A stretch of DNA of 64,000 nucleotides from Eledone cirrhosa (lineage: Eukaryota), in the NCBI GenBank assembly GCA_964016885.1, contig OZ024753.1, positions 36,270,001-36,334,000 of the forward strand. The letters run 5' to 3'. The notes beneath the pieces are model-generated. The model was not told the DNA's origin. It worked only from the letters and a program-made list of their open reading frames with translations, and ran no database searches. This document shows positions 1,388 to 54,371 of this stretch, one piece after another. The position numbers and the translations under genes were made by a program. Every line of letters begins with the position of its first letter. Positions within the stretch are counted from its first letter, which is position 1.

Positions 1388-1894
1388 TAGTTTAGCGAGG
1401 TTTTTTATATGAAATCGTGTGTCGAAACAAATATTGTTATACTTGGGGAGGGTCATATTTGTGTAATATTGCCAGAATTAATAACAGAACACACTCACTG
1501 TTTGGTTGGTTTTCGCTTCTCGCTGTCTTTTATATCTGCGATCTAACTTAATCGGTCCTCAATGTTGCACTTGACTGACCGACGGTCAAAAATAATACAG
1601 ATACAATATAGACACAAACACATATATATAGTTTACATAATTTACATAAATCTTTCGTTGCACATCTGCAACATCGTCAGTGGTGTTATATATATATATA
1701 TATATATATATATATATATATATATATATATATATATATTTTCCTCCTGTTGTGTTGTATGTCTACGCCATTTTTTATTCAGTCTGTCTATATAAAAGAC
1801 AGCGAGAAGCGAAAACCAACCAAACAGTGAGTGTGTTCTGTTATTAATTCTGGCAATATTACACAAATATGACCCTCCCCAAGTATAACAATAT
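1388..1894 (-). mobile_element. Family A hammerhead-bearing element in (TA)n, with ~105-bp inverted duplication
   Basis: Homologous to 5161-5490 (e.g. ATATTGTTATACTT(G/T)GGGAGGGTCAT, CTACGCCAT). 1431-1535 is the reverse complement of ~1790-1894. TA tracts on both sides. Confidence 0.8.
1644..1685 (-). ncRNA. Type I hammerhead ribozyme (family A, stem I degraded)
   Basis: Minus strand reads CA CTGACGA T GTTGCA GATG TGCAAC GAAA GATT TA TG: intact core, perfect 6-bp stem II, self-complementary stem III. Only ~2 bp of stem I remain. Confidence 0.7.
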
Positions 1895-4204
1895 ATATAA
1901 ATATATATATATATAAATATATATATATATAAATATATATATATATAAATATATATATATAAATATATATATATATATATAAATATATATATATATATAA
2001 ATATATATATATATATAAATATATATATATATATAAATATATATATATATAAATATATATATATATATAAATATATATATATATAAATATATATATATAT
2101 AAATATATATATATATAAATATATATATATATAAATATATATATATATAAATATATATATATATAAATATATATATATATAAATATATATATATATAAAT
2201 ATATATATATATAAATATATATATATATAAATATATATATATATAAATATATTTATATATATATATAAATATATATATATATAAATATATAAATATATAT
2301 ATATATATAAATATATATATAAATATATATATATATATATATAAATATATAAATATATATATATATATATATATATAAATATAATATATATAAATATATA
2401 AATATATAAATATAAAATATATATATATAAATATATATATATATATATAAATATAAATATATATAAATATAAATATATATAAATATATATAAATATATAT
2501 ATATATAAATATATAAATATATATATATAAATATATATATATATACATAAATATATAAATATATATATATATAAATATATAAATATATATATATATATAT
2601 ATACATATATATATATATATAAATATATATATATAAATATATAAATATATATATATATATATATATAAACATATATATATAAACATATATATATATATAT
2701 ATAAATATATATAAATATATATATATATATAAATATATATAAATATATATATATATATATATAAATATATATATGTGCGTGTGTGTGTGTGTATGTGTGT
2801 GTGTTTTAGTATACATATGGTGTATATAATTGTAGAGGTGTATGCTTGTGTAATATTAGTTGAGTGCAAGATGGCAGATATTTTGGGTTTGTTATGCAAT
2901 ATTTGCTGCAAATAGTTAATAGAAGGGGGTAAGACAGAGTTTTCCTGCAAACAGCTGTTACAGGGGACGTCTTACCTACCTATATATATACACACACATA
3001 CACACACATATATATATATATATATATATACACACATATATATATATACACACACACACATATATATATACACACACACACATATATATACACACACACA
3101 CACACATATATATATACACACACACACATATATATATATACTCACACATATATATATATACACACACACACGTATATATACACACACATACACACATATA
3201 CACACACACATATATACATATATATATACATGCAATCACTTATATGTACACACAGGCATACTCAAATACACATATATACATACATACAGTCATACATACA
3301 AACATACACACACACACAGTAGGTTCTTTGCTTTCATAATTTGGTCAGATTCCCTTGAATGATGTTAACGATGTTGATAAATGTCACATGTTTGTATTGT
3401 GACACATGCAGAAACAAGTTTAAATTCCTCCATTATCTACACATACAGAGAAACACACCAGAGAACACAGACACACATACAACGTGACATAGACACACAC
3501 ACACACACACCCACCCACCCACCCACACACACACTCACTGAGAGGCAGATGCACATATACAGACGTTCTGACAGACAGATCCGCACATACACATACACAC
3601 ACACACACACAGAAACACACCAAAGAACACAGACACATATAGCGTGACATAGACACACACACACACACACACACACAATCTCACAGATCTTCACACACAC
3701 ACAGTCTCACACATACACACAGTCTCACACATACACACACACAGTCTCACAGATTTTCACACACACACACACAGTCTCCCACATACACAGTCTCACACTC
3801 AGTCTCACACATACACACACACAGTCTCACACACACACACACACAATCTCACACATACACACACACAGTCTCACACACACAGTCTCACACACACACAGAT
3901 ATTCACACACACACACAGTCTCACTCAGACACACACACAGTCTCACTCACACACACACAGTCTTATACACACATACACACACATCTGCAAATGTTTCTGC
4001 TATTGTTGCTTCACTATTACAGTGGGGAATGTAATAAACGTTTCCTTTGGTTTAGTACAAGCCCTTCACTTTCTGGTTGTTGTTATTGTTGTTGTTGTTG
4101 TTTTGAAAGACGCCATAGCCATTGTTAAAATGCTTTTGCTCATCGGACTATTGCTCGATGATGGCTGACCTGGGGATAAACAAAAACAACAACAACCGAC
4201 AACA

Positions 4205-5035
4205 ACAAAAAGTGCTATGTGGCATTTGTTTTGGTTATTTACGGCCAGAGGTCAACTTTGCTTTTTATCCTTCCGAAATCGATAAAATAAAGTACCAGTC
4301 AAGTACTGGTGTCGATATAATCGAGTGAACCCCACTAACCTTCTACAAATGCTTGTGCGGTGTCAAAATTAGAAACAATTATTAGAGTGGTGAATTGGTA
4401 GAATCGTTAGAGCGTTGGACAAATGCTTTGTGATATTCGTTGAAACTTTTTACGTTCTAAGTTGAAATCCCACAGAAGTAATCTTTTATCTTATCAAGGT
4501 GGATAAAATAAAGCATCAGTCAGGTAGTAGAGTCGATATATTCGGCTTTTCTCTTTCCTTCAGATACTCAGATTCAAGGCCTTGTTCCTAAATTAGAAAT
4601 CATTATTATTTGGATTGGTGGTGGATTGGCAGTATCGGTAGAGAGTCGGACGCCATGCTTTGTAGCATAGAGTTACGCCTCTTCATGATCTGAGTTCAAA
4701 TCCCGCCGAGGTTAACTTTGCCTTTCATCCTTACAGGGTCGATAAAATAAAGTACCAGTAATGCACTGGGTATTTGCTGGCCTTGTGCCAAAAGTAGAAA
4801 CAATTATTATTTGGATTGGTGGTGGATTGGCAGTATCGGTAGAGAGTCGGACGCCATGCTTTGTAGCATAGAGTTACGCCCCTTTATGATCTGAGTTCAA
4901 ATCCTGCCGAGGTTAACTTTGCCTTTCATCTTTACAGGGTCGATAAAATAAAGTACCAGTTACGCACTGGGATCGATTTAATCGACTTTCCCCTCCCCCA
5001 AAATTGTAGGCCTTGTGCCTATATAAGAAACCATT
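4205..5035 (+). mobile_element. Head-to-tail cluster of four ~190-220 bp tRNA-derived SINEs (dominant family in window)
   Basis: Repeated GGATTGGCAGTATCGGTAGAG...CTGAGTTCAAATCC (B box)...CTTTGCCTTTCATCC...GTCGATAAAATAAAGTACCAG...GGCCTTGTGCC..AAGTAGAAAC. Copies start near 4205, 4385, 4617, 4818. The first two are more diverged. Confidence 0.88.
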
Positions 5036-5160
5036 GTTGTTGATGTTATATATATATATACACACACACACACACACACACACACACACACACACACACA
5101 CATATATATATATATATATATATATATATATATATATATATATATATATATATATATATA

Positions 5161-5490
5161 TTTCGTTTCTGAATTTGTTTAGCAAGATTCTTTATCTGAA
5201 AACGTGTGTTGAAACCGATATTGTTATACTTTGGGAGGGTCATGTTGCCAATAAGAAACACACGCACCAGTTGCTTTCACTTCAATTTATTATAATAAAT
5301 TTATAAATTTAGGAATTTATAAATTTCCGGTTGGTTGGTTGGTTCCCCAGCCAGATGGTTGTTTATATATTGTCAAAGTTCTTTCGTCACACATTCTGTG
5401 ACCTCTTCAGTGACTGGCGGTTCTTTTCTTTGTTTTTTGTGCCTCTCCTTTGTTCTGTCCTACGCCATCTTGTTTTTGTGTGTGTGTCTC
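5161..5490 (-). mobile_element. Family A hammerhead-bearing element, TA tracts on both sides
   Basis: Diverged homologue of 1388-1790, bounded by (TA)n at ~5102-5160 and 5492-5544. Confidence 0.8.
5372..5414 (-). ncRNA. Type I hammerhead ribozyme (family A)
   Basis: Minus strand reads GTCA CTGAAGA G GTCACA GAATG TGTGAC GAAA GAAC TT TGAC. Stem I GTCA/TGAC, stem II 6 bp, minimal stem III. Predicted cut between 5376 and 5375. Confidence 0.88.
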
Positions 5491-52442: not shown

Positions 52443-52819
52443 TAATACATTAACAGAGAAAGCTTTAAGCAATACTCCGACCGACTTCCGTCTCACTCAA
52501 CAAACATTAGGATATACCTTAGTATAATCCCAATTATACGTTTGGGGTGCTAACTATACGTATTTTGCGGATAGCCAGTTGTATTATTTTATATGAGACA
52601 TAATTAAATACATCCCTCTTTCCAAACGATCGTTTCATTATAAGTTTTCTACAAGTTGGGAAAATAATGTCCAGGTTATGTAGAAGCCTACACATAGTCT
52701 GTAGGAATATATGCAGGTGGGCACTTATAAATCATCAGTGGATGCCCAACAATATCGATATAAAAAAACCCTACCGATATTTACATTCAGCGATGGTATC
52801 CGTCAGTGTTAGAGTGACC
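52443..52819 (-). mobile_element. Family B element, TA on both sides
   Basis: Reverse complement of 21181-21551 with small indels. Confidence 0.9.
52621..52742 (-). ncRNA. Type I hammerhead ribozyme with long branched stem II (family B)
   Basis: Core and stems identical to 21229-21350. Confidence 0.8.
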
Positions 52820-53075
52820 ATATATATATATACGATATATTAACAAATGGAAACTATATTTATAAAACCATATTTATTTCATTATACATATTTCTTTTTC
52901 CTTTTTCCATACTCCAACGATCTATTTTAAATCTACTGTGATTTAAACATATCCGACACTAATTTGCATAATAGACTAAATAAATTTAGTAACCCCACTA
53001 TCCGGGAGCTTCCAACAGAAATGGTCGCATTCTTTAAGGGTTGTCAATATTTATTTATAAAACTGATCTATATTA

Positions 53076-53140
53076 TATTTTATCTGATGAAAGCGCACCA
53101 TAATTTGTCTTGGTGTCCTTGAAATATGTATAATGAAATA
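53076..53140 (+). ncRNA. Type I hammerhead ribozyme (family F, diverged copy)
   Basis: TATTTTAT CTGATGA AAG C GCACCA TAATTTGTCT TGGTGT C CTT GAAA TATGTA TA ATGAAATA; stem changes relative to 51741 preserve pairing. Confidence 0.9.
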
Positions 53141-54371
53141 AATATGGTTTTATAAATATAGTTTCCATTTGTTAATATATCCTATTTTTACTCCAATAAT
53201 TTGTTGAGTGCTTTATATCAGTTATAAAAATATTTGCTTGTTGTCGCCCAACAAATTAAATATAACTTCTACACACACACACACACACACACACACACAC
53301 ACACACACACACACACACACACACACACATATATATATTTATATATACACACACATATATACACCTATAAAACCACACTCACACACAAACGTAAAGGAAC
53401 ATATCCATTCACTAAATATACTAAAGTTAACAACAAGCTGGAGTATTTCTTCTTAAGAAGTTCGAAAAAACAAACATTTCTTTTCTTCCTTCTACCTACC
53501 ACCCACACATTTATATACATACATACATGCATATATATATATATATATATATATATATATATATATGTGTGTATGTGTGTGTGTGTATATATCGTTATAT
53601 ATATATATATATATATATATCGTTAGTTTTATATATATATATATATATATATATATATATATATATATATATATGTGTGTGTGTGTGTGTGTGTGTGTGT
53701 GTGTGTGTGTGTGTGTGTGTATATATCGTTATATATATATATCGTTAGTTTTATATATATATATATATGTGTGTGTGTGTGTGTGTGTTTATTTGGTGTA
53801 TTTATTTGTTTAGTTAAACTGTTCAACATTTTCGTGTAGAACTGACAGTAATGTATCCACTCAAGCGACTTGTAGTAAATGATAAACTTTAGCTCGCAAA
53901 TGGTCTGTAGTTTATTTTACTTTCTTTATTACTTCTATACTTTCTTACTTTTTCATTCCCACTTTCTCTTTCCTTCTTTCCGCCTCCTTTCCTTACTTTC
54001 CTTCGAACTTTCTATTCTTCTTCCATACGCTCCTTCAAATGTGATAAGCCCAATAGTTATTGCTTACACTTTTCTTTCTTTGTTAGTCCTATACTTTCTT
54101 AGATTTTCCTTCATTTTTCACTTTCTCTTTTCTTCCTTCTTCTCTCCTTCTTCCTCCTCATCTCTTCCTTCCTTTCTTTCCTTCATACTTTCTATTTTTC
54201 TTCTTCCATACGCTGCTTCAAATTTGATAAACGAAATAGCTATACCTTGAATTTTACTCTCTTTCTTTGACACTTCTATACTTTCTTACTTTTTCATTCC
54301 TTTTTTCTTTCCTTTCATTCTATTCTTTCTTCTTCTTCTTCCTCCTTTTGTCTTTCTTTCATTATTCTTAT

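What the first reader, a model, noticed from the sequence alone, without database searches (positions are those of the whole stretch)
1388..53270. A community of (TA)n-embedded short elements, each carrying a hammerhead ribozyme: a candidate Penelope-dependent, microsatellite-targeting retrozyme-like system
Seen: four sequence-unrelated ~150-500 bp non-coding families lie in or against (TA)n tracts. Each has a type I hammerhead core (CUGANGA...GAAA...UH) with a short palindromic or near-palindromic stem III. Positions are A: 1644, 5372; B: 21229, 52621; E: 15567, 37754; F: 51597, 51741, 53076. Several have a local inverted duplication, and a GIY-YIG relic with its own degenerate hammerhead lies at 50480-50870. 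Known: Penelope-like elements (PLEs) encode RT + GIY-YIG, carry minimal hammerheads with palindromic stem III in their terminal repeats, and often show inverted partial repeats; some are microsatellite-associated. Non-autonomous hammerhead retrozymes exist in animals. Inference: nine motifs from four families in 64 kb would make self-cleaving RNAs an abundant repeat class in this genome, mobilised in trans by PLEs. Whether these families are already catalogued cannot be determined here.
Basis: partly seen in the sequence, partly recalled or inferred. Interest (0 to 1): 0.92.

Follow-up and report, generated by a model that had tools for sequence, protein, structure and literature searches.

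The report
Penelope retroelement tails carrying hammerhead ribozymes
Three of the four repeat families are left-over tail ends of full-length Penelope-type jumping genes that sit in TA repeats and carry a predicted self-cutting RNA fold, which is a known arrangement; the fourth is a gene-less hitch-hiker that is likely copied more than once round from a single RNA.

Summary
All nine hammerhead cores are at the stated places, far above chance. Families A (two subfamilies), E and F continue upstream, in other genomic copies, into RT + GIY-YIG reading frames: they are 5'-truncated 3' ends of autonomous Penelope-like elements (PLEs), not separate mini-elements. Hammerheads in PLE ends, solo truncated copies, (TA)n targeting and inverted 5' pieces are all published. 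Family B is different: three non-coding subfamilies (about 713, 990, 695 nt) in partial head-to-tail tandems, no PLE frame upstream in 0 of 120 loci, a hammerhead with a branched 95-nt stem II kept by compensatory changes, and tandem copies that share locus-private variants, which points to more-than-unit copying of one RNA. A 600-kb sample gives roughly 280,000 such motifs genome-wide. Cleavage, expression and B's partner enzyme are untested. The scan has reported the same kind of system before on other DNA of this and other genomes. New member of a known kind; interest 0.37.

The parts
1385..1794 (-). A1: 5'-truncated 3' end (pseudo-LTR) of a young autonomous PLE of about 4.08 kb; hammerhead core 1680-1647, predicted cut after 1647; internal TA run expanded at 1687-1739
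1790..1894 (+). inverted piece of the A1 end, 100% identical to the L151 element
5158..5487 (-). A2: truncated 3' end of a sister autonomous PLE; core 5410-5376
11225..11639 (-).
15560..15621 (-). diverged E-type hammerhead (core 15600-15572), stem II mismatched; 87% to the E element; its own link to a reading frame not tested
21095..21559 (+). B1: 5'-truncated copy of the non-autonomous ~713-nt unit; hammerhead 21229-21350 with branched 95-nt stem II, predicted cut after 21346
37659..37883 (-). E: truncated 3' end of an autonomous Neptune-like PLE; core 37785-37758
43773..43857 (+).
50480..50990 (+). decayed GIY-YIG endonuclease end of an old PLE family, with decayed hammerhead core at 50830
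51463..51846 (.). F: fold-back pair of truncated Hydra-type PLE ends; cores 51653 (-) and 51749 (+); the two arms stop at the long and the short 3' end
52435..52819 (-). second B1 copy, truncated; core 52738-52625
52830..53273 (+). F: truncated 3' end of an autonomous Hydra-type PLE (52894-53273; core 53084-53132) with an inverted piece at 52830-52894

Best explanation
Families A1, A2, E and F are 5'-truncated 3' ends of autonomous Penelope-like retroelements and family B is a gene-less unit of the same build that is likely copied by a Penelope-type enzyme; all carry a type I hammerhead fold that is predicted to cut only as a dimer or with protein help. Mechanism, by step. (1, from literature) The element's GIY-YIG domain nicks AT-rich DNA, here (TA)n, and its RT starts at one of two fixed internal sites of the RNA. 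(2, shown) Copies have one or two fixed 3' ends against TA runs and variable 5' ends, often with an inverted piece; most stop within a few hundred bases, so that only the hammerhead-bearing end is deposited. (3, shown) B units are non-coding, lie in partial head-to-tail tandems, and their upstream copies run through the predicted cut site. (4, inferred) B is reverse-transcribed more than once round from one monomer RNA, most simply a circle made by cutting at two hammerheads and re-ligation. (5, inferred) The helper is probably a Hydra-type PLE. (6, inferred) The fold is under selection in the transposing lineage, while most single genomic copies are dead ends.
For: A1: tandem unit of 4083 bp with RT and C-terminal endonuclease between two A1 ends plus an inverted 5' copy (L151); frame 270-283 nt upstream at 95-97% identity in 12 of 30 loci, some being two arms of one insertion. 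A2: 5 of 30; E: 6 of 30, two of them the references themselves, GIY-YIG hits below the curated cut-off. F: colinear frame in 5 of 8 long-flank loci picked from 30 for long shared upstream DNA, with DKT, CxCX5C and CxxC motifs of the Hydra clade. Inverted pieces: F 18, A1 12, A2 12 of 30 each. TA: 40 of 52 ends vs 7.4%; 46 of 58 motifs have (TA)6 within 220 nt downstream vs 17.8%. B: 5' part followed directly by 3' part in 30 of 30 loci; same-strand PLE frame upstream in 0 of 30 and 0 of 90; longest stop-free stretch 83-102 aa, no tRNA. 44 of 90 loci have an upstream partial copy, 23 of 44 run through the cut site, 0 of 44 start within 5 nt of it. In 33 loci with overlap (10,029 nt) the two tandem copies share 52 non-majority bases, 26 private to the locus; 3.9-7.9 per kb against 0.6-1.5 per kb across loci. 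Of 31 named pairs, 99.6% of cells pair and 8 change on both sides, 7 of them between subfamilies, in stems I, II, IIa and III. B has the TACT...TTGAGT pair about 60 nt before its end, as F and other Hydra-type ends do. Literature: PMC4209133, PMC8557442, PMC11167929, PMC7229834.
Against: No cleavage, expression or circle was observed. B shows no nucleotide alignment to any autonomous element tested, so its partner is unidentified; it has inverted pieces in only 3 of 120 loci against 18 of 30 for F, though J has only 3 of 30. The covariation rests on three subfamilies, not 18 independent sequences, and the structure was drawn from these sequences. Shared variants could also come from template jumping or gene conversion between adjacent copies. 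Stem III self-duplexes of A1 and A2 are very weak (0.0 and +1.4 kcal/mol) and A1 has a 2-bp stem I. In vitro, the hammerhead of an anole PLE was not needed for insertion (PMC11167929), and 8 of 9 frog retrozyme dimers did not cut (bioRxiv 2026.07.22.740005). Each genome search scored only the best 40 candidates, so a rarer autonomous B parent could be missed.
Confidence: 0.8

Rival explanations
1. All four families are independent non-autonomous retrozyme-like elements moved in trans.
For: Most copies are short and non-coding; B fits; fold-back F pairs are frequent.
Against: Longer copies of A1, A2, E and F run into RT/GIY-YIG frames; 5' ends and inversion points of F differ from locus to locus, so there is no fixed short unit.
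Confidence: 0.07
2. B is copied from linear, uncut multi-unit transcripts; the shared variants come from template jumping or gene conversion, and the hammerhead does something else (protein-assisted processing late in the cycle) or parasitises the element.
For: No pile-up of 5' ends at the cut site; uncut RNA is the main substrate for an anole PLE in vitro and no RNA-seq reads ended at its cut site (PMC11167929).
Against: Half of the shared variants are private to one locus and fall on both sides of the cut site; two B1 loci hold about 1.7 units and one B2 locus more than two; the fold is kept by compensatory changes in a lineage that has no gene.
Confidence: 0.4
3. B is the terminal repeat of an autonomous PLE whose coding copies were missed.
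For: Searches score only 40 candidates and favour copies like the query; F's frame lay beyond the first 1.5-kb flank.
Against: In B the sequence after one 3' end leads, in 700-990 nt without a frame, straight to the next 3' end, in three subfamilies 69-77% identical.
Confidence: 0.1
4. The motifs are chance matches in AT-rich repeat DNA.
For: No Rfam hammerhead model matches.
Against: 8 vs 0.05 in the window; 58 vs 1.9 in 600 kb; compensatory changes.
Confidence: 0.01

Closest known systems
Minimal and small-stem-III hammerheads of metazoan PLEs (Cervera and de la Pena 2014, PMC4209133; parts 1-2 of 4 read)
   Same: Type I cores in PLE terminal repeats, palindromic stem III, extra base before stem II, mostly single motifs from truncated PLEs, opposite-strand pairs 100-700 bp apart, 2-bp stem I in D. 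virilis.
   Different: Counts there are 2,000-9,000 per genome with other descriptors, against about 280,000 estimated here; stem II there is 6-8 bp with a short loop, whereas B and J carry 95-118 nt in stem II; many stem III palindromes here are 8-10 nt.
Hydra clade of C-terminal EN+ PLEs, including Hydra-1_Obim (Craig et al. 2021, PMC8557442; passages, section 11 and supplement rows read)
   Same: DKT, CxCX5C linker, CxxC near the end, canonical hammerhead near the 3' end, (TA)n insertion; a cephalopod member with hammerhead and (TA)n preference is already listed.
   Different: F has about 1.6 kb between frame and hammerhead and is longer than the usual <3 kb; RW is followed by R, not K; many families coexist here.
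Metazoan non-LTR retrozymes (Cervera and de la Pena 2020, PMC7229834, passages and Discussion read; Li et al. bioRxiv 10.64898/2026.07.22.740005, parts 1-3 of 5 read)
   Same: Non-coding repeats with a type I hammerhead per unit, proposed to derive from PLE terminal repeats and to be copied from circles by PLE enzymes.
   Different: B is 700-990 nt, dispersed as monomers and partial dimers with a fixed PLE-type 3' end in (TA)n, not long arrays of 150-400 nt; its hammerhead has a branched stem II; circles and cleavage are untested here.
Non-autonomous Chlamys elements such as MRC1 (PMC8557442, passage read)
   Same: Non-coding PLE dependants with pseudo-LTRs and head-to-tail copies.
   Different: Algal, mostly without canonical hammerheads, and alike to their partner at the 3' end; B has no alignable partner so far.
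Poseidon of Anolis, PAc (Frangieh et al. 2024, PMC11167929; parts 1-2 of 4 read)
   Same: Two fixed RT start sites give a short and a long 3' end; AT-rich target.
   Different: Tail is 30-40 bp there, about 55-90 bp for A and F here.

Membership tests
Penelope-like elements, EN+ (A1, A2, E, F, J) | single frame with PLE RT and GIY-YIG endonuclease | tested here: met
   RVT_1 and GIY-YIG hits, all below curated cut-offs; Atlas neighbours at 0.96-0.97 carry HTH_animal/RVT_1; RT and EN motifs read. All copies seen have stops or frameshifts.
Penelope-like elements, EN+ (A1, A2, E, F, J) | partial tandem (pseudo-LTR) and inverted 5'-truncated copies | tested here: met
   L151, L155, L245, L248; inverted pieces 12, 12, 18 of 30 for A1, A2, F; 0 of 30 for E.
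Penelope-like elements, EN+ (A1, A2, E, F, J) | hammerhead in the terminal repeat; optional tail (two 3' ends) | tested here: met
Hydra clade (F, J) | DKT motif, CxCX5C linker, no CCHH, CxxC/CxH near the end | tested here: met
   F: DKT, CNCRNKSNC, CDLC; J: linker and C-terminal motifs read from DNA; definition. Read by eye.
Hydra clade (F, J) | RWK motif | tested here: inconclusive
   RWR or MWR at that place.
Hydra clade (F, J) | placement in the RT phylogeny | not tested
   No tree was built; reference sequences were seen only as cut text.
Neptune / Nematis (E, A1, A2) | CX2-5CxxC linker before the endonuclease | tested here: met
   A1 CTNRKCIIC; E has a decayed linker of this kind. Clade itself not tested by a tree.
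Non-LTR retrozymes (B) | non-coding unit with one type I hammerhead per unit | tested here: met
Non-LTR retrozymes (B) | tandem repeats with at least two consecutive complete hammerheads | tested here: inconclusive
   23 of 90 loci have an upstream copy reaching past the cut site, fewer include the whole core; no long arrays seen.
Non-LTR retrozymes (B) | canonical hammerhead with loop 1-loop 2 tertiary contact | tested here: inconclusive
   Stem II is a 95-nt three-way junction; loop contacts were not analysed.
Non-LTR retrozymes (B) | self-cleavage and circular RNA in vivo | not testable with these tools
   needs bench work.
Non-LTR retrozymes (A, E, F) | non-coding unit independent of a reading frame | tested here: not met
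Rfam hammerhead families | gathering score | tested here: not met
   0 matches in the window; none at E<=10 in two sub-regions.

The most novel reading that the evidence does not exclude
Family B is a long-lived, gene-less parasite of Hydra-type Penelope elements that spreads through a 0.7-1 kb circular RNA made by a hammerhead with a branched 95-nt stem II; its tandem copies record rolling reverse transcription across the ligated cut site, in a genome with about one hammerhead per 10 kb. It would be a compact substrate to test whether PLE hammerheads are needed for transposition.
Probability: 0.4. Interest if true: 0.62.

Novelty: new member of a known kind. Interest (0 to 1): 0.37.

Why it matters
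The role of the hammerhead in Penelope-like elements is open: it is near-universal, yet was dispensable for insertion in the one in vitro system. A gene-less lineage that keeps the fold through 25-30% divergence, and whose tandem copies share private variants, gives a small, direct test of the circle model. The estimate of about 280,000 motifs is well above the per-genome counts in the papers read (up to 120,000 in axolotl), although descriptors differ, and Rfam sees none of them. For repeat annotation, the lesson is that such 'mini-elements' are mostly truncated PLE ends.

Tried and rejected
Rfam at E<=10 on the whole window was flooded by TA-repeat matches to miRNA models; only 150 of 750 rows were shown, none a hammerhead; gathering and sub-region scans gave no hammerhead. 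The repeat finder was swamped by microsatellites. The four F copies 4 kb apart on C4 and the two A2 copies on C1 are segmental repeats, not full-length elements. Search for B's partner: no alignment of B to A1, A2, E, F or J elements, no PLE protein similarity better than E 0.01; J looked like a candidate (same stem III, long stem II) but does not align. Pile-up of 5' ends at the cut site: 0 of 44 within 5 nt; four B2 copies start at +11/+12, next to a TA-like stretch. Direct tests of the GIY-YIG relic (tblastn, Pfam, BLASTP, Atlas) were blank; only the search through a relative worked. Lunse et al. (PMC5785218) is not held and is known here only through the review PMC6765202 (passages). Literature searches listed no paper on a hammerhead census or a non-autonomous PLE in cephalopods; Dfam and Repbase could not be checked, and the preprint's supplements were not seen. 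PMC13282606 and PMC6155905 were seen as passages only. The host taxon was not tested; 'octopus-type' comes from earlier scan notes and recall.

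
Full report
Observation. The window is 33% GC and 10.7% (TA)n tract, against 4.5% in 40 sampled stretches of the genome. A descriptor for type I hammerheads (stem I at least 3 bp, stem II at least 5 bp with one mismatch, self-complementary stem III) finds 8 motifs in the window against 0.05 on average in 40 shuffles. Rfam recognises none. The relic at 50480-50870 is a decayed GIY-YIG end: it has no hit itself, but a relative finds 13 homologs, 9 with PF01541.

Genomic copies. The window lies in a 3.0-Gb genome. Searches with A1, B, E, F and A2 gave 611, 3454, 2154, 333 and 556 first-look candidates, of which 40 were scored and 30 fetched each. In every family the 3' end is fixed and abuts TA runs, while the 5' end varies. 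A and F have a short and a long 3' end about 55-90 nt apart, as expected from the two RT start sites described for an anole PLE (PMC11167929).

A, E and F are ends of autonomous PLEs. L151 holds an inverted truncated copy, an A1 end, a frame with RT and C-terminal endonuclease, and a second A1 end 4083 bp further. A coding remnant lies directly upstream on the same strand in 12 of 30 A1 loci, 5 of 30 A2 loci and 6 of 30 E loci; the script listed 14, 6 and 7, and I dropped 2, 1 and 1 rows that belong to other families. For F the first flanks showed only AT-rich DNA; 8 loci chosen for long shared upstream sequence were extended, and 5 of 8 reach a frame about 1.6 kb before the hammerhead with the DKT, CxCX5C and CxxC motifs that define the Hydra clade. 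The missed family J behaves the same way in 10 of 30 loci. Inverted pieces occur in 18, 12 and 12 of 30 loci of F, A1 and A2, with varying breakpoints. All this matches published PLE anatomy: single motifs from truncated PLEs and opposite-strand pairs (PMC4209133), (TA)n preference and canonical hammerheads in Hydra, with a cephalopod member listed (PMC8557442).

B is non-autonomous. Searching with the sequence 5' of B showed in 30 of 30 loci a unit of about 713 nt whose start follows directly on the 3' end of an upstream partial copy or on TA. Two more subfamilies, about 990 and 695 nt, 69-77% identical, have the same build. No PLE frame lies upstream on the same strand in 0 of 30 and 0 of 90 loci; the longest stop-free stretch is 83-102 aa and there is no tRNA part. 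The hammerhead has a 95-nt stem II that folds as a three-way junction. On 18 copies, six per subfamily, 99.6% of cells in 31 named pairs pair, and 8 pairs change on both sides, 7 between subfamilies, including stem I and the stem III palindrome. This counts three lineages, and the structure was derived from them. The core was matched by a strict pattern in 21, 23 and 25 of 30 copies.

How B is copied. 44 of 90 loci carry an upstream partial copy; 23 of 44 run through the predicted cut site and none starts within 5 nt of it, so the template was not a once-cut linear RNA. In the 33 loci with at least 60 nt of overlap, the two tandem copies share 52 non-majority bases in 10,029 nt, 26 of them seen in no other sampled locus, 3.9-7.9 per kb against 0.6-1.5 per kb for copies from different loci; 345 differences are unshared. 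One cluster of three (L311) may be an alignment artefact. The simplest reading is more-than-unit copying of one monomer, which is the circle model proposed in PMC4209133 and PMC7229834. Template jumping and gene conversion are not excluded. The partner is unknown: B aligns to no autonomous element tested, but it has a TACT...TTGAGT pair about 60 nt before its end, placed as in F; a looser ACTC...GAGT pattern was found in 16 of 30 clusters with a long enough 3' part, without a chance control. B rarely forms inverted pairs (3 of 120), unlike F.

Abundance. Sixty 10-kb stretches at round coordinates hold 58 descriptor hits in 26 stretches against 1.9 in shuffles; five hits come from one tandem array. 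The descriptor misses A1- and E-type and mutated copies. Hits across the first 349 loci fell into 51 clusters, some of them chance singletons. Family pieces in the sample: F 22, A2 14, E 8, A1 7, J 7, B 5; B1 itself 0. Counts in the papers read are 2,000-9,000, 5,000-6,000 and up to 120,000, with other descriptors.

Against activity. Nothing here shows cleavage. Stem III duplexes of A1 and A2 are marginal, those of B strong (-6 to -15 kcal/mol). PLE hammerheads cut weakly even as dimers; 8 of 9 frog dimers did not cut; the anole hammerhead needed protein and was dispensable for insertion.

Earlier scan notes. The same kind of system was reported on other pieces of this genome and in other genomes, including circle-like copying and a folded signal in the tail for other families; none matched B by sequence. 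They are unchecked AI notes and are not counted as support.

Verdict. Real motifs, mostly known biology: truncated ends of several PLE families in TA repeats. One new non-autonomous lineage with an unusual long stem II and a testable copying signature. New member of a known kind; interest 0.37.

Noticed in passing
window 13321-13510, 16322-16521, 49033-49177, 62282-62340, 29404-29460, 58282-58333: TA-embedded fold-back family in which GUC is followed directly by GAAAC (site-then-GAAA order); 83 such words in the window and loci, with CUGANGA within 130 nt upstream in only 1. May be the rearranged hammerhead family of earlier scan notes; not tested.
   Followed up: partly
window 43773-43857 and L022:393: Hammerhead whose stem III can close as a monomer (4 bp, 3-nt loop); family and autonomy not traced.
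   Followed up: partly
window 29512-29721: Fold-back repeat with a decayed hammerhead core at 29611 (-) resembling the A2 type, interrupted by a short dispersed repeat.
   Followed up: no
L264:8630-9700: Array of about 311-nt units, each with a hammerhead (stem III ACGCGU), plus one inverted unit: a classical retrozyme-like array.
   Followed up: no
L291-L319: B2 carries a tandem duplication of its first 250 nt (79% identical), each copy starting with the TACTC motif.
   Followed up: partly
L151:5098-5700, L155:4944-5300: The A1 frame contains a long asparagine-rich low-complexity stretch before the RT.
   Followed up: no
many loci: PLE ends of unrelated families are stacked next to each other in the same TA tracts, as at window 51400-53300.
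   Followed up: partly
window 4578-4971, 10954-11080, 14885-15003, 26623-26819, 33221-33640, 54370-54554, 60350-60715: Abundant ~200-nt dispersed repeat, SINE-like by look, at least 15 copies in the window.
   Followed up: no
window 23-855, 7342-7675, 22141-23605, 41041-41591/49210-49760: Minisatellites of 185, 55 and 23 bp, and a 550-bp element in two inverted copies 98% identical.
   Followed up: no
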